In this document: in pieces, positions 2,283-60,538 of the stretch
How the letters are laid out: each line of letters begins with the position of its first letter
Numbering within the stretch: position 1 is the stretch's first letter
Assembly (NCBI GenBank): GCA_016699105.1
Contig: CP064960.1
Location: 1,138,715-1,202,714 of the forward strand
Reading direction: 5' to 3'
Source: a bacterium
GTDB lineage: Bacteria; Patescibacteriota; Saccharimonadia; UBA4664
Length of the DNA: 64,000 nucleotides
Program-made: the position numbers and the translations under genes
The notes under the pieces: generated by a model
What the model saw: only the letters and a program-made list of their open reading frames with translations
What the model was told of the DNA's origin: nothing
The model's database searches: none

Positions 2283-2323
2283 GACTGCATTGTACAGGAG
2301 GGTATCGCGTCTGAGCTAGGTCT

Positions 2324-3028: not shown

Positions 3029-3131
3029 CTTTTATCCTTGACTAAATTATAACACCTCAGCTTCACGTATATATAAGTTTTTCCATGGCAACAACCATGA
3101 ATCGTTTCTATTTGCTCATTCGATTTTGAAT

Positions 3132-3734: not shown

Positions 3735-3774
3735 AATGTTTTGATTATGCGCGTCCAGTGATTCGACGTCTAGT

Positions 3775-4890: not shown

Positions 4891-4923
4891 ACCGGTTGAT
4901 TGGATTATTTTAGGGGGAAAATG

Positions 4924-5625: not shown

Positions 5626-5893
5626 GATTTATAATCTCCTCCTCAGAAATTGAGTGATGTTTTTATATTATCATAGCTTTAGCATTTTGTCAATAGCTAT
5701 ATCTGGATAATAAACGAAATACCCCTTGTTTCGCTGAAATCTGTCGCTGGCGGCAACAAATTGTGAGCAAAACAAGGGGTGGGCGTACAGATTTGACTGG
5801 TGATGTTGTCGATTGTGACACATCAATCCCCTTTCCCATAAAGGTGGCGACCAGTCGGTACGGGCGGGGCATTACCTGGCTGGCAATGCAATA

Positions 5894-9656: not shown

Positions 9657-9811
9657 ACTGGTTATGATAATAACAATTCCACCAACAAATGGGTAGTCAG
9701 ATAGGTCTTAAATTGGAGTATTTGACTTTTAATTGGTGTGATATTCTGATATATTATAGATATCGATGACATCCCGGTCATTGAGCACCAATACATTTGA
9801 GGAGAGAGCTC

Positions 9812-10135
9812 GTGGATCTGGTCAGTGACAATTTTGGGCCACCACGTGATGGTGACCTGGCATGCGAATTTCTGACTGCTCGAACGAGCTATGTTGAAGA
9901 GGCTCTGATGACGATTTTGCCGGCGCTATTTGAGCCGACAGACGTTCGCATCACAGTCGAGATTCGAAGCATGTCAAGTGATTGCATTACGGTTGGAGTG
10001 AACCCACGTTCACATCCCGTTGTCATGCACGCACTGAGCGGTTTTGTTCTGCCGACATGCTGGCAAAATGTTGAACTGTCACAGACGGAAACCCGCCGTC
10101 GTGGCCGTCATGCCCGGCAGCCAGTACTATCATGA
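9812..10135 (+). CDS. Hypothetical protein
   Basis: ORF with a GTG start preceded by GAGGAG 8 nt upstream. The track's TTG at 9797 lacks a ribosome-binding site. No family recognised. Confidence 0.3.
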   Translation: MDLVSDNFGPPRDGDLACEFLTARTSYVEEALMTILPALFEPTDVRITVEIRSMSSDCITVGVNPRSHPVVMHALSGFVLPTCWQNVELSQTETRRRGRHARQPVLS

Positions 10136-10271
10136 TCAACCGATCACCACAGCGCGTGCTTGTTGTCATGACGAGCGCACTCACAAGCTGGCTGGCAACA
10201 GTCGAACGCGCAAGCGTTGATCTGGTGTACCATATCTGGTACGGCCACCCGCGATCGTAAGATCGCCTCTC

Positions 10272-10332
10272 CCCCCTTCTCCCCGCAGGAACCTATTGCG
10301 TCACTTCGTGTGACCAAAGTTCCTGCGGGGAG
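10272..10332 (+). promoter_or_regulatory. Long inverted repeat (nested hairpins) in the 5' region of the lipoprotein gene
   Basis: ctccccgcaggaac ... gttcctgcggggag, with an inner hairpin gtcacttcgtgtgac. An AT-rich tract follows. Confidence 0.35.
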
Positions 10333-10416
10333 GCGAACTTTATTGCAATTTATAACTCTATATTATATAATAACCCTAGTTCATTGCTCTTACACAACAT
10401 GGAGGGAGTGGTCAAC

Positions 10417-11319
10417 GTGACCGCTCGATTGGTTCGCTACACGTTCCTCGTCATTGTTGCTGTGACCGCTCTCGCTTTGAGCGGGTGCAGCCCGGATGCT
10501 ATTCCGGTCACGGTTGCATCCGCTGGCGAAGTCCAAGGCGCGATGGTGGCTGCGCCTAGCGCGACCGTCACGTCGGTCGTCCAGCCAACACCAACTGCGG
10601 CGCCGTCAAAGGCGGTCGTGGCTCGTCCGAGTCCATCCAAGACAATCACCAAACCGGTGCCGAATACGAAGCAATCGGTGTGGTGTGCACCCATCGGCGT
10701 GAGCCAGTCTGGGCCGAAACCGCAGGTTGTTGCTCTGTCGAGCGGAACCATGCCAGGTTATTTCGGCACGGTGACCAACAGCGGCTACAAGGTCAAGTTC
10801 GAACGTTTCGACAATGACCTGGTGACAGGTTCGGTTTCGGCCTCAAACGCGACTATCATCATGGTCTACCGGGCAGCCGGCAGCGGCAAGTGTACCCTAG
10901 CCAGTGGTAAGTCCACATCATCTGGGAACGCCACGAGTTACTCTACTCGGTTGCACCAAGGTGATCATGACGTCGTCGTGTACGTGACAAAGTCGATGGC
11001 AACTCAGGTTGCTACGGAGACCTGTCCATCACCCAAGGTGGTAGTGCGCTCAAACACATTCGTGTACAACACGATCACCAAACGGTTCGATGTCAAGGGT
11101 ACCAATTTCGATGGGCTCGCCAAACCCAAACTGATGCCAGCTGGCACCAGTACCAAGGTGAGTATAGCCGCACCAACAGGCATGCTCGTCACGACACACG
11201 TGATTTATTTGAAAAACGGCAAGTGCGAGGACGCGTATAATTTCGGGCCCTCAGTGACCATCAAGGCGCCATCATCTGCCATCCGCTATGTCTGGGGGAC
11301 TGCCGAATTTGGAGAATAG
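10417..11319 (+). CDS. Predicted lipoprotein, hypothetical
   Basis: Signal peptide with a lipobox (ALALSGC). The likely start is a GTG with GGAGGGAG 8 nt upstream; the track ORF starts earlier at 10384. No family recognised. Confidence 0.55.
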   Translation: MTARLVRYTFLVIVAVTALALSGCSPDAIPVTVASAGEVQGAMVAAPSATVTSVVQPTPTAAPSKAVVARPSPSKTITKPVPNTKQSVWCAPIGVSQSGPKPQVVALSSGTMPGYFGTVTNSGYKVKFERFDNDLVTGSVSASNATIIMVYRAAGSGKCTLASGKSTSSGNATSYSTRLHQGDHDVVVYVTKSMATQVATETCPSPKVVVRSNTFVYNTITKRFDVKGTNFDGLAKPKLMPAGTSTKVSIAAPTGMLVTTHVIYLKNGKCEDAYNFGPSVTIKAPSSAIRYVWGTAEFGE

Positions 11320-11354
11320 CTACTATCACGCCACCATCACTCCCCTCTTAAAAC

Positions 11355-11389
11355 CCCTATACCCATCGTAGTGGCCTGACGATGGGTAT
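11355..11389. terminator. Bidirectional intrinsic-terminator-like hairpin between convergent genes
   Basis: A perfect 13-bp stem (ctatacccatcgt / acgatgggtatag) with a 9-nt loop. T/A-rich flanks on both strands. Confidence 0.5.
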
Positions 11390-11414
11390 AGGCCTCCTAA
11401 TATTTATAACTTGT

Positions 11415-12365
11415 TTAATTAAAGGCTTCTTGGTCGATTGAGTTATGTTCAGCGACATGGCCGTGCTTGGTGGTTTTGCCAGCTGAGCCAAAGCTATCGA
11501 TTTTTGATTCCACCACGGCCTGAACGGCTGCTATCACTTCAGGCATGAGCTTGACGATGGCATATTCGGTGGGGTTGGCGGCTAGGACTTTTTCGAGAGT
11601 CATTCGGTAAGCTTTGCGCATATCGGAATTGATGTTCACTTTGCTTATGCCCCGGGTGACGGCTCCCTCGAATTGCTCAGCTGGGGTACCGGAACCGCCA
11701 TGTAGACTGAAATGGGCAGCAGCCGGTGCCGCTGCGACGATTTCTTCAAGTAACTCGAGATCGAGTTGTTTGGGTACTGGATAGGTACCATGCAAGTTGC
11801 CAATAGCAACCGCGTAGGTATCAATGCCGGTTTCGGTAATGAATGCCTTGGCTTCGCTGGGCACCGTGAACGTCTGGCGGATGGTGTCGTAATCGATGGC
11901 ATCGGTATGAACATTGGAGCTCCCACCAAAATAATGCGGTTCACTCTCGACCAGCGCGCCGGTGGTCTTGGCATACTCAACTACTTCTTTGGTGGCGGCA
12001 ATGATTTCGGCGAGTGAGGCATCCTTCTTGGCCTGCGAAAAATCGATATGAATAAATTCAAAGCCTGCGTCAATGCCCGCTTTGGCAGCGGCGACACTGG
12101 GGGCATGATCGAGGTTCAAATAGGCTTCGACGCCATATTCGGTACGATAGTTGTCGACGAGGCAACGGGCATTGGTAAGCCCGATCGCATCTACTTCACC
12201 GGCCGACAATTGTACCAATACCGGACTCTGCTTGGCGGCAGCAGCACGCATGATGGCAATTAGCGTTTCTTGATTGTCGATATTAAACGCGCCCAAGGCA
12301 AAATGTTCTCCTCGGGTACGCTGATATAACGCGCGGGCTGCGGCGATGTGATGGAGTTTAGACAT
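11415..12365 (-). CDS. fba: Class II fructose-bisphosphate aldolase
   Basis: The N-terminus matches class II FBA/tagatose-bisphosphate aldolase (ALYQRTRGEHFALGAFNIDNQETLIAI, ...HFSLHGGSGTP). The start is taken at MSKLHH. Confidence 0.85.
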   Translation of the reverse strand: MSKLHHIAAARALYQRTRGEHFALGAFNIDNQETLIAIMRAAAAKQSPVLVQLSAGEVDAIGLTNARCLVDNYRTEYGVEAYLNLDHAPSVAAAKAGIDAGFEFIHIDFSQAKKDASLAEIIAATKEVVEYAKTTGALVESEPHYFGGSSNVHTDAIDYDTIRQTFTVPSEAKAFITETGIDTYAVAIGNLHGTYPVPKQLDLELLEEIVAAAPAAAHFSLHGGSGTPAEQFEGAVTRGISKVNINSDMRKAYRMTLEKVLAANPTEYAIVKLMPEVIAAVQAVVESKIDSFGSAGKTTKHGHVAEHNSIDQEAFN

Positions 12366-12381
12366 AAGCGAATTATACCAT

Positions 12382-12864
12382 TTATTTACGGGCGAACAGG
12401 GCACCGGCTACGTAAGACATTCCGAAGAGCGCCATGATAGCAGATTGATACATTGGGCCGCCTAATTGGTCCATTCCGAGGCGAAATGCCTGAGACACGA
12501 TAGCCATCACGGCCACACAGACCAAGGTTTGTAACCAAGCAGCTACGCGTAATCGACTGCGGTCAGAATCGATACCAACGGATTTGAGTGCCACCATGGT
12601 TAAAACAAAAATGGCGCTAAAGGCAGCAGCGGCTACGACCATACTGATGAGATATTCGAAGGCAAAATAGTTTTGGCTCAGATCCATAACCGCAGGATGC
12701 AACATCCAGATCATTTGACTAATAAACATGCCTGGAATTAAAACTGCTAAAATACCGGCGATGAACAACACAAGAAATAATAGATCGGTGCGCGACGCAA
12801 GCGGTGTGACAAACAATCTTGATGCTTTTTTAGCAATTCGAGCACGGGCCATGGGCTTACCCAT
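12382..12864 (-). CDS. Small multi-pass membrane protein, hypothetical
   Basis: 160 aa with four predicted TM helices. Confidence 0.45.
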   Translation of the reverse strand: MGKPMARARIAKKASRLFVTPLASRTDLLFLVLFIAGILAVLIPGMFISQMIWMLHPAVMDLSQNYFAFEYLISMVVAAAAFSAIFVLTMVALKSVGIDSDRSRLRVAAWLQTLVCVAVMAIVSQAFRLGMDQLGGPMYQSAIMALFGMSYVAGALFARK

Positions 12865-46965: not shown

Positions 46966-48362
<1,397 letters not shown>

Positions 48363-48368
48363 CCCGCG

Positions 48369-48785
48369 ATGAAAGTAGAACTACTAACACTGTCGGGAAC
48401 CAAATTCTCGGGTGAAGCCGATGAGCTGCGGCTAACTACCACCAATGGTCAGATTGGCATACTCCCCCACCATGAGCCTTTTGTAGCCCAAGTAGTGGCA
48501 GGACCAGTGGTAGTCCGGCCCACAACGGGTCAGCCAGAAATCTTTGCGACCTACGGCGGCATTGTGGAAGTGACAGCTGACGCCGTGCGGCTATTGGCTG
48601 ATGAAGCTGATCATGCCGATGACTTGCTGGCCGATGAAGTCGAAGAGGCGTTGAAACGGGCGACCGAAATGCGCGACAAGGCCAAAGACCGCGTCGAGTT
48701 GGAGCAAGCGCAAAGTATGATTGACCGCGCCAATGTCCGCTTGGGCGTAGCTAAGATGCGCCGGACACATCACCGTGAGCGATAG
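48369..48785 (+). CDS. atpC: F0F1 ATP synthase subunit epsilon
   Basis: 138 aa beta-sandwich plus helical hairpin. Last gene of the operon. Confidence 0.8.
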   Translation: MKVELLTLSGTKFSGEADELRLTTTNGQIGILPHHEPFVAQVVAGPVVVRPTTGQPEIFATYGGIVEVTADAVRLLADEADHADDLLADEVEEALKRATEMRDKAKDRVELEQAQSMIDRANVRLGVAKMRRTHHRER

Positions 48786-49113
48786 TTTGCTAAAACTCAA
48801 TTCCAATCCAGATTTACGTGCCATACAGGAATACGTCAACCAATTGGAAATTGAGCGTGGGTTTACCGGAAACTCCATACAGCAAGAGTGTTTGTTATTG
48901 GGGGAAGAAGTCGGTGAGCTTTTTAAAGCAGTGCGAAAACAACAAAAAATGCGTATAGACGCAAAGTCCAAAGTTACTGAGGTTGAGGAAGAATTAGCAG
49001 ATATACTGATCTACATTTGCGCCATAGCTAATCGTCTCAATGTGAATCTAGAACAGGCGCTACGTGACAAAGAAGAGATTAACAAAAAACGCAATTGGCA
49101 CATGACAGCTTGA
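48775..49113 (+). CDS. MazG-like nucleoside triphosphate pyrophosphohydrolase
   Basis: EExxE-type motifs (LLGEEVGELFKAVRK; EELADILIY). GTG start that overlaps the atpC end. This is the start of a lower-GC segment. Confidence 0.65.
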   Translation: MSDSLLKLNSNPDLRAIQEYVNQLEIERGFTGNSIQQECLLLGEEVGELFKAVRKQQKMRIDAKSKVTEVEEELADILIYICAIANRLNVNLEQALRDKEEINKKRNWHMTA

Positions 49114-49174
49114 TAATAAATCGTATTTCTTTTATCATTGTGCGGCGTTCATAGACTGCCAGAGAGGAATACGT

Positions 49175-49786
49175 ATGAGCCAAAACGTAGGGTTTTTTAT
49201 CGCGTTAGACGGACCAAAGCATTCAGGTAAGTCAACATTATTAGCCCTACTTACTCCTCTGCTGCATGCAATGGACATTCACGCGTTCCTTACCAAAGAG
49301 CCATCAATCCATTTTCATTTAGAAAATGAGGAGGCTTATAGTGGAGAAGACTTAGCCAGACTGCTAGCCAATGATCGGCGCAGGCATTTAGACGAAGTTA
49401 TATTGCCAGCACTTCACGCTTACGATGTTGTGATATCAGATCGATATATAGCGTCGTCACTAGGTTTTCAGGTGCTAGATGGCGTGCCTTTTGAAACAGT
49501 ATGGGCGATGAACAATCAATTTCTACTGCCAGACCTGAATGTTTTTCTGGTCGCAGATGAGGAAATTCTTAAGCAGCGCAGAGCCGGTCGCGGTATGTAC
49601 ACTCGCATTGAGCGATCCAGCAATGTCGCTGATGAAATACTTTTGTACGGGAAGATTTCTGATTTTTTGTCACATCTCGGTGTCGACACAATTACGATTG
49701 AGAATAATGATTCGACATCACGATCTGAAACGGCGCAACGTCTTGCCGTCGCCATAGCTAAAAAAATATCTGAGCATAATGAATAA
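49175..49786 (+). CDS. tmk: Thymidylate kinase-like (dNMP kinase family)
   Basis: P-loop FIALDGPKHSGKST, TKEPS, DRYIASSLGFQ, a LID-like RRAGRG, and PDLNVFLVADEEI. Collinear with Tmk. Confidence 0.7.
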   Translation: MSQNVGFFIALDGPKHSGKSTLLALLTPLLHAMDIHAFLTKEPSIHFHLENEEAYSGEDLARLLANDRRRHLDEVILPALHAYDVVISDRYIASSLGFQVLDGVPFETVWAMNNQFLLPDLNVFLVADEEILKQRRAGRGMYTRIERSSNVADEILLYGKISDFLSHLGVDTITIENNDSTSRSETAQRLAVAIAKKISEHNE

Positions 49787-50297
49787 ACCTCTAGACATCT
49801 TACCAATCGAACCAATAGTGGACCGTCAGTCTGCATTTATGTTTTTACTGGGTATATTGTTTAACCAGCAAGTTCGGAGTGATATCGCTTGGCGCGCGCC
49901 ATACCAACTCGGAAAGCGCTTGGACGGTTTCACCCCGGAACATATTCTGATTTATAGTGAGTCAGAATTTACAGAAATTTTTGGCAGATCTCCAGCCATC
50001 CACCCATTTGTTCAGCGAATGGCACAATATACCTACGCCATAGCCCGAGTAATCGTTAATGAATATGACGGCGATGTGCGGAAAATATGGACCCCAAGCG
50101 TACCTGCTGGCGAGCTTGTCCGGCGTCTAGTAGCTATGCCGGGAATCGGTGATCACAAAGCTCGGATTGCGCTATTCGTAGCTACGGTCCAGCTGGGGAT
50201 ACGGGTTCGTGACGATGGAAGGAGCTATAGTATACGAGATTGCGATGGCTTAGCCACATTGTTCTATCCAAACGAGGAACCAAGCCTGGTTCTGTAA
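49779..50297 (+). CDS. HhH-GPD superfamily (endonuclease III/AlkA-like) domain protein, short form
   Basis: Helix-hairpin-helix LVAMPGIGDHKARIALFV and an upstream FMFLLGILFNQQVRSD region resembling the EndoIII N-terminal core. There is no Fe-S C-terminal extension. Confidence 0.45.
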   Translation: MNKPLDILPIEPIVDRQSAFMFLLGILFNQQVRSDIAWRAPYQLGKRLDGFTPEHILIYSESEFTEIFGRSPAIHPFVQRMAQYTYAIARVIVNEYDGDVRKIWTPSVPAGELVRRLVAMPGIGDHKARIALFVATVQLGIRVRDDGRSYSIRDCDGLATLFYPNEEPSLVL

Positions 50298-50321
50298 GCT
50301 ACCCAAACTATTGGAGTACAC

Positions 50322-51300
50322 ATGCCAACAACTACTTTTCAGTTGCCCGAGCTTCAATTCGACCACCAGGAACAATGCTATCGAAATGAATCTGGCCAAT
50401 CTACCACTGAATTGGTAGCTCAGATGACAGCGCCGTTGAGCGCCACCTACCAGCTAACCCGCTTTTGCAACCTCAAATGCGTGTATTGCTCGGAACCGCC
50501 AGATGGTGTGAGCACTCCGCTGGGGTTACATCTTGAACGGGTAGATCGACTGGCTGGAATGCGGCGCATCATTGTTGCCGGTGGCGAACCCATGGTTTAC
50601 AAGCATTTCTGGCCCTTCATGGAATATCTGCGAGACAGGTTTGAAGTAGTAGTACTGTCAACAAACGCTGTTTTTATCGGACCCGACGAAGCATCGCGAC
50701 TAAAAGAGTTGGTTGATTATGTAGACGTCACGCTTGATGGGCCCCGCCGTCAACACAATGCAATCCGGGGTGACTACGCCAAGGTTACCCGAGGCATGAT
50801 GTCTGTAGCTATAGCCGGTATTCCGCTGTCTGCAATTTGCGTTTACATGCCAGCTGAGCAGCCTGATTCGCGAAACCTGCTCAAAGCAACTCCGGCCGGG
50901 CAATCGCGATGTCATGCACTATATAGCTCAACAAGGTGATCTGCTCGGTGCCGTTAAGACAAAGATTCTTACACCAATTCCGAAAGGTCGAAGCGAAGAT
51001 CTCTTCGATGGGTTCGTCCCACAGCAAGAGTTGGACGACTTGGCTGATTTTTTGGCTGAGGAAAAGGTCAAAACGGCTGGCAGACTCGAATTATCATTTC
51101 TGACTGGCAACGCATTGGTAAGGGTCATGCTTGGCTGATCGAACCAAACGGACGAGTCGTCGCCTCGCCAGTTTGGGGCATGGATGATTGTATCCATCCC
51201 TTTGGAAACATCGATGAACTCGATGCGGCTGGTCTCTGGAATGCATTTCCGTACAAGCAAAACCACCTCGACAAATATCTCGAGCGAACCCTCATAGTCA
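50322..51300 (+). pseudogene. Radical-SAM/SPASM-type enzyme gene disrupted by at least two frameshifts
   Basis: ORF 50322..50939 has CNLKCVYC and GGEP. Two further frames (50914..51138 and about 51120..51300) carry a C-terminal continuation with a SPASM-like tail (IEPNGRVVASPVWGMDDCIHPFGNIDELD...LWNAF). Confidence 0.5.
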
Positions 51301-51317
51301 GGTAAGATTCCTGACTG

Positions 51318-51356
51318 CTCGCTAGCGGAGGCGCTTCTATTCAGCGCCTCCGCTAG
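51318..51356 (+). terminator. Rho-independent terminator after the low-GC gene block
   Basis: A perfect 15-bp stem (cgctagcggaggcgc / gcgcctccgctagcg) followed by a T-rich tract. Confidence 0.55.
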
Positions 51357-51852
51357 CGATAGTTAATAAATTTTTCTAGATTCATTTTGGCAATCCGATC
51401 GAGCTTTAATAACGTCTGTTATACTTATTTCATGATTCTAACGCTACATATTTTGCTGGCGATAATGAGCTTGGTGCAGGCATCGTATCTGTACGCCAGG
51501 CCGAGCGGTAACCAATTTTTGGTTGCTGGAAGCCTCATCGGCACGACGCTTGGAAGTGGGGTGGGTTGACGGTGTTGTCGCCGGCTCACCTAGCACCGGC
51601 GTGCGTCAGCGGTGTGATGTATGTTGCGATTGTTGGTACACTGCTGATTGCAGGTCAACGTAAACTAGTCCAGATGACCTAGCTGTGCGGACTGCCCGAG
51701 CAGGCGTTATGTTAAAGTCATAGCCTTTTTCAGCGTGACGGATTAATTTGACATATATTTCTTCAATGATATGATATGCCCCTGTCATGAGACAGACTCG
51801 AGATGTACCACTATCCACCGCAATGGTGGACTGACAACCAAAGGAGATATGC

Positions 51853-52282
51853 CGTGCTTCTCAGTGAGCTTTTTGCCGGTAGTGATGAAGATGTCCGCAT
51901 TGATACTAATTGGCGGGAGGGAAGCTCTGGGTATTTCGACTCTCGCACCATTACCCAAGCAATTACGTCATGGCAAGATTTCTTGGTCTGGACGTGTCGA
52001 TGGATCAACGAACAGTCCGGGCAGCGGCAGTCTGGCGAATTCCGGCTCATGCCGGTAGCCATCATGCATGATCCCCTGAATCGACCCGGTTTTATGGTGG
52101 TCGTAGGCTGGCTGATTTCAGTAAATCGTGATGATGAAGCCGCAGAAGCTGAGCGGGCGATTGCCATGATCCATAATCCGGATCGGAGTGTTCCCAACGA
52201 GATCAGCCGGATTGATCCAGACAAGCTGCGTGAACTAACGCATATTGTTGGCCTACCGACACAAGCAATGCCTGTTCGTTGA
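51853..52282 (+). CDS. Hypothetical protein
   Basis: GTG start with AGGAG 7 nt upstream (the track ORF begins at 51803). No family recognised. Confidence 0.4.
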
Positions 52283-52295
52283 TCGATATTGATCT

Positions 52296-52333
52296 GATTC
52301 ACCTATGCCACCTCCTACACAGTTGGGAGGTGG
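52296..52333 (+). terminator. Rho-independent terminator (convergent junction)
   Basis: An 11-bp stem (atgccacctcc / ggaggtggcat) followed by TTTCATT. Confidence 0.55.
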
Positions 52334-52341
52334 CATTTTCA

Positions 52342-53048
52342 TTAGGTCTTGGGAATAGGCGTTGATTGATTTGACTGGTTCGTAGAATCACCAAGTACTT
52401 GGCCAGCTCCAGGTTGAGGTGTAGGGTTGGGATCAATCACGACGGGCCCCGGAGTGGGTGATGGTACTAATGCAGGTGATGGAGATGGATCTGGTGAGAC
52501 GTTTGGACTTGGTGAAAGCTGCGGTGAAGGCGATGGTTCGGCTACCTGCGTTGATGAAATGGGGTCATCTTTGGTGATCTCGACTATCGCGTGGACGACG
52601 CTGGCTAATATTCCGGAATGAGGCGCTGGGCTCGGCGATGGGGTGGGCTGACTGATCGACGGCTTGGGCGTGGACGTTGTTTTACTTGAAGGCGCGGTAG
52701 TAGGCTTGGCTTTGGTCGCAGTTTCAGTATTATGGACTAATTCTGTAGTACCGGGTCGGGGCGTTTCAGTAGCCGACCGAGCGTCCCCACCCACAAGGTG
52801 GCGAGCGGCTTTGATGCCAAGGCCAACATGGCAATGGCACTTCCAGCCACAAAGGCAACAACGGCTTTGGGCATATGCAAGCGTAGAAATCGATGCCTTA
52901 GCTTGAGCGCAGCTCCTACGCGGGCGGCATCAAATGGTTCGAGATACTGGTCGAGCTGATTGGCAGCCACCCGACGCCGGGAGCCGTCTTGAAATATTAG
53001 GAGTACAACTTCATCGGTTTCGACACTGTAGTTGGCTAGCTCACTCAT
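52342..53048 (-). CDS. Membrane-anchored protein with a Ser/Pro/Thr-rich extracellular tail, likely frameshifted near 52740-52790
   Basis: ORF 52737..53048 has a cytoplasmic N-terminus and a TM helix. ORF 52342..52794 is a low-complexity PSPSP tail in another frame. Confidence 0.35.
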
Positions 53049-53182: not shown

Positions 53183-54336
53183 ATGCATCGCAGTTTGAAA
53201 TGGCGCCTGCTACTGGGCGCTTTTTTGGAAGATTTTATACTTATTTACCCGTTTTACCAGCTGATGATGCTGGCCCAAGGGGTCAATATCGCCCAAATTT
53301 CTGGGCTATTTATATTGTGGTCATTGGTTTCAATCGTTGCCGAGATACCAACCGGTGTCTTAGCTGACCGCATACCGCGGAGATACCTTTTGGTGACTGC
53401 CCAGATCTTACGGGCGGCAGGGTTCGGCGTGTGGTTAGTGTGGCCTGACTGGTGGGGCTATGCTACAGGTTTTGTCTTGTGGGGTATAAGTGGCGCCTTT
53501 CATTCGGGAACATACCAAGCATTTGTCTACGATGAGCTGGCAGCCGTTGGTCAATCACAACGCTACACTTGGTGGCAAGGCCGCTTGAACGCATTGACGG
53601 AACTAGGTTTAATGCTATGCGCTTTTGCGGGTGCCGCCGCCATCCAATGGGGCTATGACGGGGTTGGTTACATCAGTATTGCTGTCGGGTTAATTACTGC
53701 TGGTTTATATGCCACATTACCATCAGCGCCCCCTCGCGAACAATTGGCTGATACCGGCTACTGGCATGAATTGAAAGTCGGCGTGGGCGAAGCACTACGG
53801 ACGCCGGCCATCCTGCGGTTGGCTATCCTGGGCGCGGTGGTTGGTAGTGTTTATGGTGTGATGGAGGAATATACCCCGGTCTATGCAGCAATCCCAGGAT
53901 TGGAACTGTGGCAAATATCGCTATTGGAAGGCATCATAGGGGTGGCCGTGATCGGCGGCAGTTTGGTAGCACATCGTCTCCAGGCTGTGGGCGACAAAGG
54001 TTTTGCCTGGTTATTGGCGCTGGCTGGATTGGCGCTCATAGCTGCAGCAGCTCCTGGCGTATTCCAGGATTTGGAGCAGTGATGTTGGGCTTTGGTTTAC
54101 TTAAACTACTGGAGGTGGCATATGATGCTCGGTTGCAGCATGAAATATCGAGTCATCGCCGCGCCACTATCACTTCCGTCAGTGGATTTATTCTGGAAAT
54201 ACTAAGTATCGGACTGTTTGGTTTTTTCGGCTTGCTAGCCCAGCTTTACGGTACTTTGACAGCTTTCGGCTGGATTGGTGGAGGTGTTACGATTGTCGGC
54301 TTGTTGTACATCGGCAAAAAGTTCCGCGATAAATAA
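53183..54336 (+). CDS. MFS-type transporter, frameshifted in the 53910-54080 region
   Basis: 12-TM-like hydropathy. The N-terminal ORF (53183..54082) and C-terminal ORF (53908..54336) overlap in different frames. Confidence 0.6.
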
Positions 54337-54520: not shown

Positions 54521-55378
54521 GTGATGACGATGTGGCTCAGGCCACTTCGTGCAATCGCAAGCTTAGGATTGGCTTTATCTCTGACTGCAATCGGTCCAAC
54601 CGTTTCAGCGTCAGCATCAACGCCAGTATCGGCTACAGTAGTCAAACCGATGTGTTCAAAAATCGTCGTCTTTGGAGTGCGGGTTCACGCACCAATGCCA
54701 GGATACTGGCATGGCTGATGGTGTAGTCAATCGATTTTTCAATCAATTCCGCTACGCCTATTCTGGGCAGCGGTGCCACCAATGTCGGTTATTCGATTGG
54801 AAATGGTCAGATATCCTGCTGTCCCGGTCACGACTGGAGTCAAATCATACGGCGCCAATTATATGCGCAGTGTTGATGCGGGCGTCAGAGAGCTGGCGGC
54901 AAATGTCCGGACACTCAAGGCCACCTGTCCGAAAAGCGCTTACGTGGCAACGGGTTTCAGTCAAGGTGCCAATGTGATTGGTGAGTTTGGACGCGACTAC
55001 TGGCGGGAGGGTCTACTCAATAACGGGTTGGCATTTGTGTTGTTTGGTAATCCGGCTCGAAATCAGAATGTTAGCGAAACCGAGCTGTACAAACTGCCCG
55101 GAGGAAGTCATGGAATATTGTATTCCGGCCTAAGAGCTATCGGATGGCCTTCACCGCAAGATGAACTGACAACCCCAAAGGGTTACAGCTTGCTGAATAC
55201 CTTTGATGGTTGCGATCCCCGCGACCCAGTCTGTTCATTTAAGGGTGATCGACAGTCATATGAAGATCTGGCCAACTGTGCGCTCTTTAGCTGTTCACAC
55301 TTTGACTATGTCGTCAACGGTTGGACAGGGTTGGCAGCCGAGCGCGTGACTCGCTTGGCAAAGTCGCACATGAATTAG
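54521..55378 (+). CDS. Cutinase-family serine esterase, frameshifted near 54690-54780
   Basis: Signal peptide in ORF 54521..54718. Nucleophile elbow GFSQGA and a Cys pair (CDPRDPVC) in ORF 54773..55378. Confidence 0.6.
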
Positions 55379-56753: not shown

Positions 56754-57668
56754 TCAATCTGGGTCGGGATCAATCCTACTAGTGAAACATCGCCCCCAAC
56801 GAATATTCGAGATGGCTTCGTCATACCCGTTCCAGACATCACCTACACGGCGGTCTTCAAACCCAGCCATCTCCTCGCAAGGATACAGATGGCCTGTAGG
56901 ACCAATGACTGAACCCCCTGCTTGGCACATTGGGCACGGTACACGTGTCCTTGTCGGTACACCAAAGCCTAAAGCTGCCGACAGTCGATATAATTCAATG
57001 ATAGCCTCCTCCGCTGGCAGCGTATTTGGGTCGAGGCCAGATTGCCAACCAACACCCGTGTCATGCACTAATGCGAAGAAAACTGTATGCAGGGACGGGT
57101 TAAGATTCGTGCTTAAATCGTTCAACAAATCGGGGATGCTGGCGTAGTTGTGCGGCGTCACGTGAATCCTGATGTTAGTACGCAACGCTGTTGTTTCGAC
57201 TGCGCTGAGGTTTTTCACGATGGTATCGTATGTGCCTCGATTGCCAGCTAAGTATCTTGTGGCATCATGGTTAGGCTGTGAGCCGTCGAACGTGATAAGG
57301 GCGGACTTTAGACCTGCTTCGACTAGCCTTTCAGCCAATGACGGTACAAGCAGTACACCGTTGGTCGTCAGGCGAGCATTAGACAGCGCGGGCATGCCCC
57401 TGAGTAATCTGAGGCAATGGTCGGGAAATATGAGCGCCTCGCCGCCGAGCATAACCAGGTTTACCACACTACCTTGTCGCCGGTAGTCAACAAATTTAAA
57501 TACCTGATCCATTATGTCATTCGTCATGGGTCGGCTATTGAGCCGTGGACCAATTTGGCTGATGGCTGGCTGGCGCTGGAAGCAATAAGCGCACGAAGCA
57601 TTGCAAATAAAACTTAAAATGACCATCGCACTATAGGCGGTATCTTTAGGCCATTGCGATTCCGGCAT
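56754..57668 (-). CDS. Radical-SAM enzyme with a C-terminal SPASM/twitch-like Cys-rich domain (peptide-maturase type)
   Basis: CNASCAYC (Cx3Cx2C) near the N-terminus, and GGEALIF. The C-terminus is CPMCQAGGSVIGPTGHLYPCEE...IRWGRC. Its start overlaps the upstream DUF397-B stop by 23 nt. Confidence 0.8.
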   Translation of the reverse strand: MPESQWPKDTAYSAMVILSFICNASCAYCFQRQPAISQIGPRLNSRPMTNDIMDQVFKFVDYRRQGSVVNLVMLGGEALIFPDHCLRLLRGMPALSNARLTTNGVLLVPSLAERLVEAGLKSALITFDGSQPNHDATRYLAGNRGTYDTIVKNLSAVETTALRTNIRIHVTPHNYASIPDLLNDLSTNLNPSLHTVFFALVHDTGVGWQSGLDPNTLPAEEAIIELYRLSAALGFGVPTRTRVPCPMCQAGGSVIGPTGHLYPCEEMAGFEDRRVGDVWNGYDEAISNIRWGRCFTSRIDPDPD

Positions 57669-58879: not shown

Positions 58880-60538
58880 TTAGAAATGATCGCGCACGTG
58901 GGCCATGGAATAGTCCCAGTCGGAGTCGGCTTTTTTGTGCGGATTGAAGATGTTCTCGGGATCGAAGATGCGTTTGACGTCTTTGAAATAGCCGGTAATT
59001 TTGGGTCCGTACATTTGCTCGAGCCAGGGACCTCGAATCATACCATCGTTGTGCTCGCCTGAAAGTGAGCCTCCATATGACAGCACGAGTTCATTAGTCT
59101 CACGCATTGCCGGTTCGAGTTTGGCGCGCTCGTCTCTATCCTCAAGCTTCATCAAAGGGATGATGTGGAAATTCCCGTCGCCCATATGGCCAGCGATGGT
59201 GGCAAAGAGATCATATTTTTTGATAATGAGACGCATTTTGGGTAGAAAATCCGGCAGATGCTCGGGGTTGACTACCAGGTCATCGATAAATGGTGCCGTG
59301 TGCTTGTCTTTGACTTTGCTGCGCAGCAGCTGGAATGACTGCCGACGCATGATCCAGTATTTCTCTGAGCTTTCTTCAGTCGGATCTTCCTCGGTAGCTG
59401 AGATGTGGTAATAGCTGTGTTTGATGTCGAGGTCTTTGTGGAGGGCATGGATTTTCTCCCGAACTTCATCGCGAGTATCGCCGTTGAACTCGACCATCAA
59501 AATGAGCTTGGGAATGCCGTGCATCAGCATGAAAGCATCGGGTATGAGGCTAATAAGTAAATGGATGAATTTGATTGTCCCGAGCATTTTGAGGAAGCTG
59601 GGCATAAATTTGATCGATAGCCATAAGGTGACATCGTCGAACGACTCAAACGTGGCGGGCTTATAGCCTAGGACTTTGTTGATGACATCACCAAGATGGC
59701 TTATGTCGGTCAAAAAGAGCACCAATAATCCGGAGTGGGGTTTATGCGGAACCAGTTTAAATTTAGCTTCAGTCAGAATACCGAGTGTCCCCTGTCCGCC
59801 AATCACTAAATTGGCTAAGTTGAAGATGCCAGTCTTGCGATCCCAGACATCCCAAAGGTTGTAGCCAGTCGCGTTTTTGGAGACATGAGGCTTGGCGGCT
59901 TTGATGGCGGCATAATTGGTATCAACCAGATCAAAAATGCGGCTATACAACTTACCTTCAAAATCTTTTTGCTTCATTTTCTGGTCGAGCTGAGCTTTGG
60001 TAATAGGTCCAAGCTCATACTCTTTGCCGTCAGCTAACACTACCTTGATAGTGTCGACAAAATTCATGGTTTTGCCGTACTCGAGAGATTTTTCGCCACC
60101 CGAGTTGTTGTTTACGATACCACCGATGGCACACAGTCCGCGGCTGGCTGGATATGAGGGCATGAGCGCGTTGTGCTTGAGGGTTTCAACTTCAAAATCC
60201 CGGTAATACATACCAGGCTGAACACGAGCTTTAGTCGCCGAAACCTCATACAGCTGGTTCATATGTCGGGTAAAGTCGGCGACAATTGATTCACCGATCG
60301 AACCACCGGACATATCGGTACCGGCGCTGCGGGGAGTGATTGATAGCTTGGGGTTGGTGGCTTTGTTTTTGGCCACATAACTAACGAGTTTTTGGACGTC
60401 AGCAGAATCTTGGGGAAAGACTACCGCTTCGGGTTTGAGTTCAAAAAGGCTGGCATCATGGGAGTAAAATTCACGCGTTTTAGCGGTAGCGTCAACCTCA
60501 CCCTTGATGACTTTGGAGAGTTCTTCGGCAAGTTTCAT
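58880..60538 (-). CDS. FAD-binding oxidoreductase (FAD_binding_4 / GlcD / D-lactate dehydrogenase-like)
   Basis: 552 aa. N-terminal FAD-binding PCMH domain (VVFPQDSADVQKLVSYV...SITPRSAGTDMSGGS) and a C-terminal FAD-oxidase domain. Confidence 0.8.
   Translation of the reverse strand: MKLAEELSKVIKGEVDATAKTREFYSHDASLFELKPEAVVFPQDSADVQKLVSYVAKNKATNPKLSITPRSAGTDMSGGSIGESIVADFTRHMNQLYEVSATKARVQPGMYYRDFEVETLKHNALMPSYPASRGLCAIGGIVNNNSGGEKSLEYGKTMNFVDTIKVVLADGKEYELGPITKAQLDQKMKQKDFEGKLYSRIFDLVDTNYAAIKAAKPHVSKNATGYNLWDVWDRKTGIFNLANLVIGGQGTLGILTEAKFKLVPHKPHSGLLVLFLTDISHLGDVINKVLGYKPATFESFDDVTLWLSIKFMPSFLKMLGTIKFIHLLISLIPDAFMLMHGIPKLILMVEFNGDTRDEVREKIHALHKDLDIKHSYYHISATEEDPTEESSEKYWIMRRQSFQLLRSKVKDKHTAPFIDDLVVNPEHLPDFLPKMRLIIKKYDLFATIAGHMGDGNFHIIPLMKLEDRDERAKLEPAMRETNELVLSYGGSLSGEHNDGMIRGPWLEQMYGPKITGYFKDVKRIFDPENIFNPHKKADSDWDYSMAHVRDHF

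What the first reader, a model, noticed from the sequence alone, without database searches (positions are those of the whole stretch)
48775..51400. Low-GC island after atpC: MazG-like, dTMP-kinase-like, HhH-GPD-like and a degenerate second SPASM radical-SAM gene
Seen in sequence: the about 2.6 kb following the atp operon is visibly more AT-rich than its surroundings (about 42% against about 52% GC in the stretch I sampled, 49141-49800). It encodes four co-oriented genes: a MazG-type NTP pyrophosphohydrolase, a Tmk-like kinase, a short HhH-GPD (glycosylase-fold) protein and a radical-SAM/SPASM gene broken by at least two frameshifts. A strong 15-bp-stem terminator ends the block at 51318-51356. 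A 60-aa hydrophobic ORF (51387-51569) follows.

Inference: the composition and the nucleotide-handling gene content suggest a horizontally acquired, possibly phage-derived, nucleotide-modification or sanitising cassette. A second SPASM-type radical-SAM gene in a 64 kb window is notable. Unlike housekeeping genes with single indels, this one may be truly decaying, since it needs at least two frame changes and its SPASM Cys is replaced.
Basis: partly seen in the sequence, partly recalled or inferred. Interest (0 to 1): 0.55.

Follow-up and report, generated by a model that had tools for sequence, protein, structure and literature searches.

The report
Mobile radical-SAM nucleotide-modifying four-gene cassette
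The stretch after the ATP-synthase operon is an intact, horizontally acquired four-gene cassette of unknown function that recurs in scattered bacteria and archaea, often beside mobile or anti-phage genes; its "broken" radical-SAM gene is only a sequencing artefact.

Summary
The four co-oriented genes are real: MazG-type pyrophosphohydrolase, Tmk-like kinase, a protein with a DNA-glycosylase (HhH) fold, and a radical-SAM enzyme.

**What was wrong in the finding**
- The radical-SAM gene is not decaying. Its two frameshifts are single-A miscounts in A runs (50883-50885 and 51070-51073). Two independent, near-identical contigs carry an intact 327-aa gene, and the corrected window protein is 100% identical to it. 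The same comparison restores atpD.
- It is not a SPASM enzyme. The whole family has a SPASM-derived C-terminus without the cluster cysteines.
- Low GC holds only for mazG and tmk (41-44%). The radical-SAM gene sits at the window mean.

**What was right**
- Horizontal acquisition is well supported. Homology with close relatives stops at the atpC stop, and they carry other genes or none in that slot.
- The cassette differs 0.36% from a sister strain, against about 3% for its flanks.

**What it is**
- The same module occurs in Nocardia, Actinoplanes, Actinomadura, Saccharibacteria, Sphingobacteriales and DPANN archaea. It often lies in conjugative-element-like regions, once next to a Lamassu system.
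- Natural fusions link the radical-SAM domain to MazG and to an endonuclease-IV-like domain.
- It was not found in PADLOC (2023), in the NCBIfam or Pfam models above cut-off, or in the literature held here.
- Best guess, inferred only: it makes a non-canonical deoxynucleotide, and the repair-fold partner acts on DNA carrying it, in phage or mobile-element conflict.

The parts
48369..48785 (+). atpC, the last gene of the atp operon and the left boundary. Homology with cassette-free relatives ends exactly at its stop codon.
   Evidence: blastn of L132, L137 and L039 against the window all stop at 48785.
48775..49113 (+). MazG-type all-alpha NTP pyrophosphohydrolase, 112 aa from the GTG that overlaps atpC. 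NCBI aa, consistent with the TTG at 48787. No terminator lies between atpC and this gene.
   Evidence: Pfam MazG 31.5 bits against cut-off 22. Closest solved relatives are the 2q73/2q5z entries (deposited as hypothetical protein; from my memory the integron iMazG) and dCTP pyrophosphatase 1. 70-72% identical to the first gene of the Nocardia and L003 cassettes.
49175..49786 (+). Tmk-like P-loop dNMP kinase, 203 aa. Its end overlaps the next gene by 8 nt.
   Evidence: Pfam Thymidylate_kin 73.5 bits. TIGR00041 scores 77.7 bits, just under its 83.25 cut-off. Alignment to S. aureus TMK keeps the DRY motif and the RR-H and SSL-xQ segments, and Leu aligns with the Phe of 'LF'; the base-contacting roles of these residues are from memory. 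PADLOC VakA (viperin-associated kinase) E 2.4e-7.
49779..50297 (+). Small protein (172 aa) with the HhH DNA-glycosylase fold, in a sub-branch of the uncharacterised TIGR03252 family.
   Evidence: TIGR03252 E 2.6e-30, 105 bits against cut-off 136.5. AlphaFold model pLDDT 92.5. Best PDB fold matches are NTHL1, endonuclease III, AlkA and TAG, E 2e-5, TM about 0.5. Best viral match is the helical domain of 5-hmdU DNA kinase, E 9e-3. Conserved residues are G25, Q30, R47, H75, F77, W104, G124 and K127.
50322..51305 (+). Radical-SAM enzyme, 327 aa once two homopolymer errors are corrected. CX3CX2C at C49/C53/C56. The C-terminal domain is SPASM-derived but lacks the cluster cysteines.
   Evidence: Pfam Radical_SAM. 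Intact 307-337-aa homologues reach 77% identity over the full length. The corrected translation is identical to the L037 protein. The model of homologue P0001 has pLDDT 92; best folds are SkfB (2e-13) and viperins (1e-10, TM up to 0.71).
50883..50885 (+). First frameshift site: an AAA run where two independent near-identical contigs have AA.
   Evidence: MAFFT comparison of the window with L036 and L037.
51070..51073 (+). Second frameshift site: an AAAA run where the same two contigs have AAAAA.
51319..51359 (+). Perfect 17-bp hairpin with a 7-nt loop that ends the block. It is a probable terminator of the atp-plus-cassette transcript, without an adjacent U-tract.
   Evidence: Not called by the consensus terminator scan.
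48778..48787 (.). Left copy of a 10-nt exact direct repeat, AGCGATAGTT, at the atpC stop. The right copy is at 51355-51364.
   Evidence: Family D11 of the repeat finder and the sequence read. It may be chance, since 21 such families occur in 4.1 kb, but it brackets the cassette and hairpin exactly.
51355..51364 (.). Right copy of the 10-nt direct repeat, at the 3' end of the hairpin.

Best explanation
**What it is (shown).** This is an intact, self-contained, horizontally mobile four-gene operon, inserted directly after atpC and probably read through from the atp operon.

**How it works (inferred).**
1. The MazG-type enzyme turns a deoxynucleoside triphosphate into the monophosphate.
2. The radical-SAM enzyme chemically alters that nucleotide. 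Judging from the Tmk-like partner, it is probably a pyrimidine.
3. The Tmk-like kinase re-phosphorylates the product so that it can re-enter the dNTP pool.
4. The glycosylase-fold protein recognises or cuts DNA according to whether it carries the altered base. In archaeal versions an endonuclease-IV-like protein takes this place.

The module most likely serves in conflict with phages or other mobile DNA. Either it poisons replicating invader DNA and then excises it, or it marks DNA as self.
For: **Intactness.** Near-identical contigs L036 and L037 carry an unbroken gene. The two corrections are single A's in A runs. All 13 substitutions scored within atpC and the cassette genes against L037 are synonymous.

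**Mobility.**
- The cassette is absent from all 80 atpC relatives found in metagenomes, and from the six loci shown (L132-L137) that encode the AtpC representative of the window's 90% cluster. These carry different genes, or none, in that slot.
- Cassette divergence from L037 is 0.36%, against 3.25% for atpD and 2.75% downstream.
- The same genes occur in Nocardia, Actinoplanes, Actinomadura, Herbihabitans, Thermomonospora, Phytohabitans, Saccharibacteria, Sphingobacteriales, Aenigmatarchaeota and Nanoarchaeota.
- Cassette GC differs from flank GC in nearly every host.
- No other neighbouring gene is shared between loci.

**Functional coupling.**
- Natural fusions exist: MazG plus radical SAM (P0244), endonuclease-IV-like TIM barrel plus radical SAM (P0239), and PfkB kinase plus a related radical-SAM domain (P0288).
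- The tmk and HhH genes overlap by 1-8 nt in 8 of 10 loci.
- The kinase slot is sometimes filled by a guanylate-kinase-family or an added AAA_28 kinase.
- Streptomyces phage Gilgamesh has a distant full-length radical-SAM homologue (E 9e-41) close to a P-loop kinase and a Nudix pyrophosphohydrolase.

**A DNA step.**
- The HhH model matches only DNA glycosylases.
- The archaeal TIM barrels hit only deoxyribonuclease IV models in NCBIfam, at E 8e-9 and far below cut-off.

**Conflict context.**
- The cassette lies next to Lamassu genes LmuA (3e-53) and LmuB (2e-122) and a serine recombinase in L003.
- It lies beside TrwB/TraG coupling-protein genes in Nocardia (with a relaxase) and Sphingobacteriales (with serine recombinases).
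- An OLD/AriA-like ATPase occupies the same post-atpC slot in relative L040.

**Logical precedents (my own knowledge).** T4 dCTPase, hydroxymethylase and dNMP kinase; MazZ and PurZ in 2-aminoadenine phages; viperin with CMPK2.
Against: - No substrate, product or phenotype is known. Every mechanistic step is inferred from folds and gene context.
- The radical-SAM enzyme's nearest sequence relatives are peptide and cofactor maturases (MftC, AhbD, SkfB), not nucleotide enzymes.
- The canonical glycosylase Asp is not conserved across the HhH family. That protein may therefore bind DNA or a nucleotide without cutting.
- A pyrophosphohydrolase and a kinase in one operon would form a futile cycle unless their specificities differ.
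- In this genome the operon appears to be transcribed constitutively with atp genes, which sits badly with a strongly toxic product.
- Only about 3 of 9 contexts hold recognisable defence genes.
Confidence: 0.42

Rival explanations
1. It is a DNA hypermodification system acting on DNA after replication, analogous to phage thymidine hypermodification. The translationally coupled Tmk-like and HhH proteins would form a two-subunit DNA-base kinase or transferase. The radical-SAM enzyme would remodel the appended or activated group. The purpose would be to protect host or mobile-element DNA from nucleases.
For: - It uses the same three enzyme classes as the characterised phage pathways: a P-loop 5-hmdU DNA kinase, an HhH glycosylase-like amino-acid:DNA transferase, and a radical-SAM isomerase (PMC8989533).
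- The best viral fold match of the HhH model is the helical domain of 5-hmdU DNA kinases (E 9e-3). An amino-acid:DNA transferase also appears, with TM 0.50.
- The tmk and HhH genes overlap in most loci.
- The cassette is carried on conjugative-element-like regions.
Against: - No sequence homology was found to phage M6 gp51 or gp55 (transferases), gp53 (radical SAM) or gp54 (kinase).
- No Pfam model of those phage families appeared among the hits.
- The cassette holds no dUMP hydroxymethylase or other source of 5-hmdU.
- The MazG-to-radical-SAM fusion points to free nucleotides.
- The fold matches are weak.
Confidence: 0.2
2. It is a nucleotide-pool sanitising and DNA-repair kit, essentially the first reader's reading. 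MazG would destroy a damaged dNTP, the glycosylase-fold or endonuclease-IV-like protein would remove the same lesion from DNA, the radical-SAM enzyme would reverse or process the lesion as spore photoproduct lyase does, and Tmk would supply dTDP.
For: - The MazG is of the DCTPP1-type subtype, whose members I recall as house-cleaning enzymes.
- Two different DNA-repair folds are recruited to the same core.
- Neighbours in some loci are repair genes: Pnkp/Hen1, Thg1 and a DNA ligase in Herbihabitans, and apparent Ku and ATP-dependent ligase ORFs (read from sequence, not HMM-checked) in the Aenigmatarchaeota locus.
- The operon is expressed together with a housekeeping operon here.
Against: - The family is rare and patchy, with 66 representatives at E<=1e-30 among 1.84 billion proteins.
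- It is carried on mobile elements and absent from close relatives of this genome, which is unlike core repair.
- The radical-SAM enzyme shows no specific similarity to spore photoproduct lyase.
- A kinase is not needed for sanitising.
Confidence: 0.15
3. It is the biosynthesis and self-resistance set for a secreted nucleoside-analogue antibiotic. The radical-SAM enzyme and kinase would make the analogue, while MazG and the glycosylase-fold protein would protect the producer.
For: - Most hosts are Actinobacteria.
- The logic resembles oxetanocin biosynthesis (OxsB/OxsA; my own knowledge).
- The PfkB and sugar-isomerase-like TIM-barrel fusions suit small-molecule sugar chemistry.
Against: - No transporter, regulator or tailoring gene is conserved next to the cassette.
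- The cassette occurs in Saccharibacteria and in DPANN archaea, lineages generally described as small-genome symbionts, which are unlikely antibiotic producers.
- It sits in defence and conjugative contexts, not biosynthetic clusters.
Confidence: 0.08
4. It is a decaying, non-functional remnant of a foreign cassette, as the first reader suggested for the radical-SAM gene.
For: The window sequence as given has two frame changes in the radical-SAM gene.
Against: - Both changes are one-base length differences in A runs relative to two independent assemblies.
- The corrected protein is identical to theirs and keeps every residue that is invariant in the family.
- atpD, an essential gene, carries the same kind of error.
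- All substitutions in the cassette are synonymous.
Confidence: 0.02

Closest known systems
Phage thymidine hypermodification pathways (5-hmdU DNA kinase, amino-acid:DNA transferase or aGPT-Pplase, radical-SAM isomerase; phages M6, ViI, SP10; PMC8989533)
   Same: - It combines a P-loop kinase, an HhH DNA-glycosylase-fold protein and a radical-SAM enzyme in one gene cluster devoted to a pyrimidine.
- The HhH model's best viral fold match is the helical domain of 5-hmdU DNA kinase.
   Different: - No sequence homology was found to the M6 proteins.
- The kinase here is a genuine Tmk relative.
- The radical-SAM enzyme belongs to the SPASM/twitch branch rather than the spore-photoproduct-lyase branch.
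- The cassette has no hydroxymethylase or PLP enzyme.
- It has a MazG gene that is fused to the radical-SAM domain in some relatives.
- It is found in cells and conjugative elements, not in phages.
Prokaryotic viperins with associated nucleotide kinases (pVip plus Vak; eukaryotic viperin plus CMPK2)
   Same: - A compact radical-SAM enzyme of about 300 aa without auxiliary clusters is encoded beside an NMP kinase, in mobile or defence contexts.
- Viperins are among the best structural matches (TM up to 0.71).
- There are weak PADLOC hits to pVip (4e-11) and VakA (2e-7).
   Different: - It fails the viperin family models: NF038283 scores 33.5 bits against a 180 cut-off, and TIGR04278 scores 25 against 450.
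- The hits cover only the generic N-terminal core.
- The C-terminal domain is SPASM-derived.
- There are two extra conserved partners, MazG and a DNA-repair-fold protein.
Pre-replicative modified-nucleotide pathways of phages (T4 gp56 dCTPase, gp42, gp1 kinase; MazZ and PurZ for 2-aminoadenine) (my own knowledge)
   Same: The logic is the same: a MazG-type enzyme supplies a dNMP, a modifying enzyme alters it, and a dedicated dNMP kinase returns it to the pool.
   Different: - The modifying enzyme here is a radical-SAM protein of an uncharacterised family.
- The cassette is cellular.
- A DNA-repair-fold protein is an obligatory member.
TIGR03252 'HhH-GPD-type base excision DNA repair protein' of Actinobacteria
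   Same: It is the nearest sequence family of the third gene (E 2.6e-30). Stand-alone members occur in Nocardia, Tsukamurella and others.
   Different: - The score is below the family cut-off (105 against 136.5).
- The cassette proteins form their own branch, always linked to the kinase and radical-SAM genes.
- The family itself has no tested function that I could find.

Membership tests
MazG / all-alpha NTP pyrophosphohydrolase (PF03819) | Profile match above the curated cut-off | tested here: met
   31.5 bits against a cut-off of 22.
MazG / all-alpha NTP pyrophosphohydrolase (PF03819) | Acidic metal-binding motifs (ExxE ... ExxD) | tested here: met
   GEEVGE and EEELAD are read in the translation. 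They align with the solved iMazG/DCTPP1-type entries.
dTMP kinase (PF02223 / TIGR00041) | Profile match above the curated cut-off | tested here: inconclusive
   Pfam scores 73.5 bits against a cut-off of 27, which is met. The NCBIfam equivalog scores 77.7 bits against 83.25, which is not met.
dTMP kinase (PF02223 / TIGR00041) | P-loop, DRY motif and thymine-contacting residues | tested here: inconclusive
   The P-loop GPKHSGKST, the DRY motif and the Arg- and Gln-containing segments align with S. aureus TMK. Leu replaces the Phe of 'LF'; that this Phe stacks on the base is from memory, so substrate identity is not established.
HhH-GPD DNA glycosylases (PF00730) | Profile match above the curated cut-off | tested here: not met
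   Pfam scores 14 bits against a cut-off of 26.2. TIGR03252 scores 105.4 against 136.5.
HhH-GPD DNA glycosylases (PF00730) | Fold: two helical domains with a helix-hairpin-helix | tested here: met
   The model has pLDDT 92.5. The top 50 PDB matches are all HhH glycosylases, the best being NTHL1 at E 2e-5. The hairpin is PGIGDHKA.
HhH-GPD DNA glycosylases (PF00730) | Conserved catalytic Asp about 20 residues after the hairpin | tested here: inconclusive
   Asp145 and Asp146 are present in the window protein and its close clade. They are replaced by Thr, Ala or Ile in the Actinomadura and Herbihabitans branch.
Radical SAM superfamily (PF04055) | CX3CX2C cluster motif and core profile match | tested here: met
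   The motif is C49-x3-C53-x2-C56, invariant in the family. Pfam scores 60.5 bits on the intact protein.
SPASM / twitch radical-SAM subgroup (PF13186) | C-terminal domain with cysteines for auxiliary Fe-S clusters | tested here: not met
   There is no SPASM hit at E<0.1 on the intact protein. Only one conserved C-terminal Cys (C293) exists in the family. Relatives P0244 and P0239 give sub-threshold SPASM hits, so the domain is SPASM-derived but lacks the cluster cysteines.
Viperin / pVip (NF038283, TIGR04278) | Family profile above the cut-off over the full length | tested here: not met
   The scores are 33.5 bits against 180 and 25.3 against 450, and cover the N-terminal core only. Structural similarity is moderate, TM 0.5-0.7.
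Phage thymidine hypermodification system | Homology to 5-HMUDK, AADT (aGPT-Pplase) and the radical-SAM isomerase | tested here: not met
   hhalign and BLASTP against M6 gp51, gp53, gp54 and gp55 give probabilities of 0.6% or less, or P-loop similarity only.
Phage thymidine hypermodification system | A source of 5-hmdU (dUMP hydroxymethylase) in the cluster | tested here: not met
   No such gene lies in the cassette or is conserved beside it.
Known anti-phage systems (PADLOC-DB v2.0.0) | Specific match of the components to a catalogued system | tested here: not met
   There are only weak, partial hits to pVip, VakA and PDC-M51B, and none for MazG or the HhH protein.
Horizontally acquired genomic island | Absent from close relatives at the same site | tested here: met
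   L132-L137 and L039 lack the cassette, and homology ends at the atpC stop.
Horizontally acquired genomic island | Deviant composition | tested here: inconclusive
   mazG and tmk have z of -3.8 and -2.8. The radical-SAM gene is at the mean, and the tetranucleotide signature is normal.
Horizontally acquired genomic island | Mobility genes or flanking repeats | tested here: inconclusive
   There is no integrase or transposase inside. A 10-nt exact direct repeat brackets the cassette, but it may be chance.

The most novel reading that the evidence does not exclude
This is a previously undescribed conflict system. A radical-SAM enzyme with a SPASM-derived domain that lacks the cluster cysteines manufactures a non-canonical deoxynucleotide. 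A dedicated kinase feeds it into DNA synthesis. A dedicated glycosylase-fold or endonuclease-IV-fold partner then reads that mark, either destroying replicating invader DNA or telling self from non-self. The system circulates as a portable four-gene cassette among Actinobacteria, Saccharibacteria and DPANN archaea.
Probability: 0.3. Interest if true: 0.85.

Novelty: new variant of a known kind. Interest (0 to 1): 0.6.

Why it matters
If the inferred role holds, it would add a new radical-SAM chemistry on deoxynucleotides. It would also add a new way for cells or mobile elements to use the nucleotide pool and base-excision enzymes in conflicts with phages, alongside viperins and phage DNA hypermodification.

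The cassette is small, self-contained and present in cultivable hosts (Nocardia asteroides, Actinoplanes, Actinomadura). It can therefore be tested directly.

On the practical side, the case shows that apparent pseudogenes in this assembly are homopolymer artefacts.

The post-atpC slot is a variable region in this lineage.

Tried and rejected
- **Pseudogene or decay.** Rejected by comparison with independent contigs.
- **Phage origin.** Scans of IMG/VR and of 50,697 phage records found no close homologue of the radical-SAM enzyme and none at all of the HhH protein. The only find was a distant analogue in Streptomyces phage Gilgamesh.
- **Plasmid search.** This gave only mycofactocin-type and other unrelated radical-SAM genes, plus a variant Tmk-HhH pair on a Rhizobium plasmid.
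- **Viperin membership and thymidine-hypermodification membership.** Both were tested and not met.
- **Extra conserved cassette genes.** LigT-like proteins and small ORFs were checked, and none is shared between loci.
- **PDB sequence search with the HhH protein.** It returned only a spurious CD19 hit, so fold search was needed.
- **Literature searches.** Five term combinations aimed at this gene combination found nothing relevant, and one for TIGR03252 found nothing at all.
- **Taxonomic placement of the window genome.**
  - The sources name it only 'MAG: bacterium'.
  - Rfam found no rRNA.
  - tblastx against the flanks of cassette-bearing loci found no shared genes.
  - The phylum stays undetermined. 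The 1.32-Mb contig and the actinobacterial-type accessory genes only hint at a small-genome associate of Actinobacteria.

Full report
**1. The observation**

Four co-oriented ORFs follow atpC: 48775-49113, 49175-49786, 49779-50297, and a radical-SAM gene split over three frame pieces between 50322 and 51305.

- MazG: Pfam 31.5 bits against a cut-off of 22.
- Thymidylate_kin: Pfam 73.5 bits. The NCBIfam dTMP-kinase equivalog scores 77.7, just under its 83.25 cut-off.
- HhH protein: it matches the uncharacterised TIGR03252 'HhH-GPD-type' family at E 2.6e-30, but scores below the cut-offs of both that model and Pfam HhH-GPD.
- Radical_SAM: Pfam 61.5 bits.

The hairpin at the end of the block is real and stronger than described. 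It has a perfect 17-bp stem, dG -42 kcal/mol and z -7.9, but lacks an adjacent T-run.

The compositional claim is only partly right. The GC values are mazG 0.410 (z -3.8 against 64 ORFs of the window), tmk 0.436 (z -2.8), the HhH gene 0.476 and the radical-SAM gene about 0.51. The last equals the window mean of 0.506. The tetranucleotide signature is unremarkable. The same rise in GC from mazG to the radical-SAM gene is seen in the close-clade cassettes (Nocardia, L003 and Actinoplanes sp. L006). It is therefore partly a property of the cassette itself.

**2. The 'decaying' gene is an assembly artefact**

A search with the pieced-together protein found intact 307-337-aa homologues. The closest, from Nocardia asteroides, is 73-77% identical over the full length.

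Exact-protein look-ups then recovered two independent contigs of nearly the same sequence.

- L037 is NCBI GCA_020050275.1, 98.4% identical over window 47317-51924.
- L036 is a Logan assembly of SRR12762291, 99.2% identical.
- In L037 the radical-SAM gene is a single 327-aa ORF. In L036 it is an unbroken ORF of at least 292 aa that runs off the contig end.

The window differs by one extra A in an AAA run (50883-50885) and one missing A in an AAAA run (51070-51073). Applying these two corrections gives a 327-aa protein 100% identical to that of L037.

The same comparison repairs the atpD frameshift (a missing G at 47927). It also extends the '60-aa hydrophobic ORF' to 83 aa (a missing T at 51563). 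That makes 5 indels in 4.6 kb. The source record is a 1.32-Mb 'MAG: bacterium' contig. Indels in short runs of this kind are typical of long-read assemblies; that reading is my inference.

The 'replaced SPASM cysteine' is not decay either.

- Across 20-43 homologues, the only conserved cysteines are the CX3CX2C triad, C173 and C293. The positions in question (Ala284, Ser285) are invariant.
- The intact protein gives no Pfam SPASM hit at E<0.1.
- More distant relatives give sub-threshold SPASM hits.
- The C-terminal domain is therefore SPASM-derived but lacks the cluster cysteines family-wide.

**3. Horizontal acquisition is well supported**

- None of 80 metagenomic loci encoding AtpC relatives (41-91% identity) has the cassette downstream.
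- The six loci shown (L132-L137) for the AtpC sequence that represents the window's 90% cluster, from different samples, show two other arrangements. In L132-L136 atpC is followed by an EamA gene, and in the longer ones by a block running on to an ECF sigma factor. In the other (L137), atpC is followed directly by the 244-aa gene and cutinase block.
- Nucleotide homology with the window stops exactly at the atpC stop (48785) and resumes at 52753.
- Against L037, the cassette differs at 0.36% of sites, all synonymous. This compares with 3.25% in atpD and 2.75% downstream. That pattern suggests recent spread of the cassette between strains.
- A 10-nt exact direct repeat (AGCGATAGTT) sits at the atpC stop and again just after the hairpin. 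It brackets the insert neatly but could be chance.
- There is no terminator between atpC and mazG, so the cassette is probably read through from the atp operon (inference).

**4. The cassette is a conserved, portable module**

A genome scan plus tblastn found the same genes together in many hosts.

| Host group | Arrangement |
|---|---|
| Nocardia, Actinoplanes | Same order as the window |
| Actinomadura and some other Actinobacteria (e.g. a Streptosporangiaceae MAG) | mazG moved downstream of the radical-SAM gene |
| Herbihabitans, Phytohabitans | tmk-HhH-radical SAM, with an added AAA_28 kinase and a weak convergent MazG |
| Thermomonospora | tmk-HhH-radical SAM; no mazG hit in the stretch held |
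| Two Saccharibacteria MAGs | One (L010) has mazG, HhH on the opposite strand and the radical-SAM gene; the other (L005) shows only the radical-SAM gene, at a contig end |
| Sphingobacteriales | A guanylate-kinase-family gene replaces tmk |
| Aenigmatarchaeota, Nanoarchaeota | Radical SAM plus tmk, with an endonuclease-IV-like TIM-barrel gene in place of the HhH gene; Nanoarchaeota also has mazG |

- No other neighbouring gene is shared between loci.
- Cassette GC departs from flank GC in almost every host.
- The radical-SAM family is rare. Only 66 representatives reach E<=1e-30 among 1.84 billion, and roughly 30 of them are full length.
- Three of the hits listed in that search are natural fusions: MazG plus radical SAM (P0244), AP_endonuc_2 TIM barrel plus radical SAM (P0239), and PfkB kinase plus a related radical-SAM domain (P0288).
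- The tmk and HhH genes overlap by 1-8 nt in 8 of 10 loci examined, which suggests translational coupling.

Contexts are mobile or conflict-related.

- The Nocardia locus has TrwB and relaxase genes.
- The Sphingobacteriales locus has TraG/TrwB, a SymE toxin and serine recombinases.
- L003 has a complete Lamassu pair (LmuA 3e-53, LmuB 2e-122) immediately upstream.
- In relative L040 an OLD/AriA-like ATPase occupies the post-atpC slot.

**5. Structure and comparison with known systems**

- The HhH protein models with high confidence (pLDDT 92.5). It matches only HhH DNA glycosylases in the PDB: NTHL1, endonuclease III, AlkA, TAG and OGG1, at E 2e-5 and TM about 0.5.
- Among viral models its best match is the helical domain of 5-hmdU DNA kinases (E 9e-3). 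An amino-acid:DNA transferase also appears with TM 0.50.
- The canonical catalytic Asp is present in the window protein but is not conserved family-wide.
- The radical-SAM model (homologue P0001, pLDDT 92) is closest to SkfB and to viperins, with TM up to 0.71. It fails the viperin family models (33.5 bits against 180).
- The MazG is closest to the solved entries 2q73/2q5z and to dCTP pyrophosphatase 1. From memory, 2q73/2q5z are the integron-borne iMazG.
- The Tmk-like protein aligns with S. aureus TMK across the DRY motif and the Arg- and Gln-containing segments. Leu replaces the Phe that, from memory, stacks on the base.

The characterised phage thymidine-hypermodification pathways use the same three enzyme classes: a P-loop DNA-base kinase, an HhH glycosylase-like transferase and a radical-SAM isomerase (PMC8989533). 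However, profile and BLAST comparisons with phage M6 gp51, gp53, gp54 and gp55 show no homology. No hydroxymethylase accompanies the cassette.

Streptomyces phage Gilgamesh carries a distant full-length homologue of the radical-SAM enzyme (E 9e-41). It lies near a P-loop kinase and a Nudix pyrophosphohydrolase, which makes it an analogous module.

PADLOC, PHROGs and NCBIfam hold no specific model for the cassette. Literature searches for the gene combination and for TIGR03252 found nothing relevant.

**6. How it most likely works**

*Shown:*
- The operon is intact, conserved and mobile.
- MazG and the repair-fold partner are physically fused to the radical-SAM domain in some lineages.
- A nucleotide kinase is nearly always present, though its family varies.
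- Two different DNA-repair folds can fill the fourth slot.

*Inferred:*
1. MazG supplies a dNMP.
2. The radical-SAM enzyme modifies it.
3. The kinase returns it to the pool.
4. The HhH or endonuclease-IV-like protein acts on DNA according to the presence of the altered base.

The purpose would be conflict with phages or other mobile DNA.

*Rivals:*
- A post-replicative DNA hypermodification system with Tmk-HhH as a split DNA-base kinase.
- A sanitising and repair kit.
- Biosynthesis of a nucleoside antibiotic.
- A dead remnant, which is refuted.

None of the mechanistic steps has been tested. The radical-SAM enzyme's nearest sequence relatives are peptide and cofactor maturases, so the substrate assignment is the weakest link.

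**7. Verdict**

The gene content and the horizontal origin were right. The reading was wrong on decay, SPASM and probable phage origin, and overstated the extent of the low-GC stretch.

The block is a member of an uncharacterised, rare, mobile four-gene module. Its composition places it between viperin-kinase defence and phage nucleotide or DNA hypermodification, without belonging to either.

Noticed in passing
window 46966-48362 (atpD), indel at 47927: The essential atpD gene is split into two ORFs by a missing G relative to L037. This is an assembly error, not biology.
   Followed up: yes
window 52342-53048 (-), 53183-54336 (+), 54672-55378 (+), 56754-57668 (-): Several other genes look truncated or split by the same kind of indel. 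The 244-aa gene of relatives is split into 150-aa and 103-aa ORFs. The MFS transporter and the cutinase/PE-PPE-like gene each appear as two overlapping ORFs. The second radical-SAM protein is 304 aa here against 323-324 aa in relatives.
   Followed up: partly
window about 54.7-58.7 kb; L132 15262-19055: A block conserved in relatives holds a cutinase/PE-PPE-like gene, a DUF397 protein, a second and unrelated radical-SAM gene, and an HTH_31/DUF5753 regulator. From my memory DUF397, DUF5753 and PE-PPE are typically actinobacterial families, which hints at further gene flow from Actinobacteria.
   Followed up: partly
window 48786-52750, compared with L039, L040, L041, L132 and L137: The slot just after atpC is hypervariable in this lineage. 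Depending on the relative, it holds an EamA-to-ECF-sigma block, nothing, an OLD/AriA-like ATPase (L040), or, in L041, direct adjacency to the FAD-linked oxidase that lies at 58880-60538 in the window.
   Followed up: partly
window 51803-52282 (+): A 159-aa ORF with no Pfam, NCBIfam, PADLOC or PHROGs hit and no homologue in any fetched locus lies between the cassette and the point where homology with relatives resumes.
   Followed up: partly
L123 (Streptomyces phage Gilgamesh MN234216) 7893-11611: gp39 is a distant radical-SAM homologue. It is followed by two unknown proteins (gp40, gp41), a P-loop kinase (gp42) and a Nudix hydrolase (gp43). This may be a phage counterpart of the cassette.
   Followed up: partly
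L139 (Rhizobium sp. T1473 plasmid NZ_CP149876) 1-5498: A dTMP-kinase gene overlapping an HhH-like gene sits next to a TPR protein and two divergent radical-SAM genes, the complete one of which carries a true SPASM domain. The locus is on a conjugative plasmid with IS fragments downstream. It is a second variant of the kinase, HhH and radical-SAM theme.
   Followed up: partly
L130 (Herbihabitans) 1724-5652 and 11624-12848; L019 11670-13438: RNA- and DNA-repair genes lie near the cassette in some hosts: Pnkp/Hen1, and a Thg1-like gene with an AAA_33 kinase (Pfam). ORFs that look like Ku and an ATP-dependent ligase (read from sequence only) follow it in L019. It is not clear whether this is more than coincidence.
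   Followed up: no
window 2324-3028 (-), 22.5-26 kb, 15 kb, 57.3-59.4 kb: There are other compositional outliers. One gene has GC 0.435, as low as tmk. The strongest tetranucleotide deviations of the window lie at 22.5-26 kb, about 15 kb and about 57.5 kb.
   Followed up: no
L005 (Saccharibacteria MAG) 2-964: Here the radical-SAM homologue has GC 0.60 in a contig of GC 0.45. This is the reverse of the window and fits recent capture from a high-GC (actinobacterial) donor.
   Followed up: no
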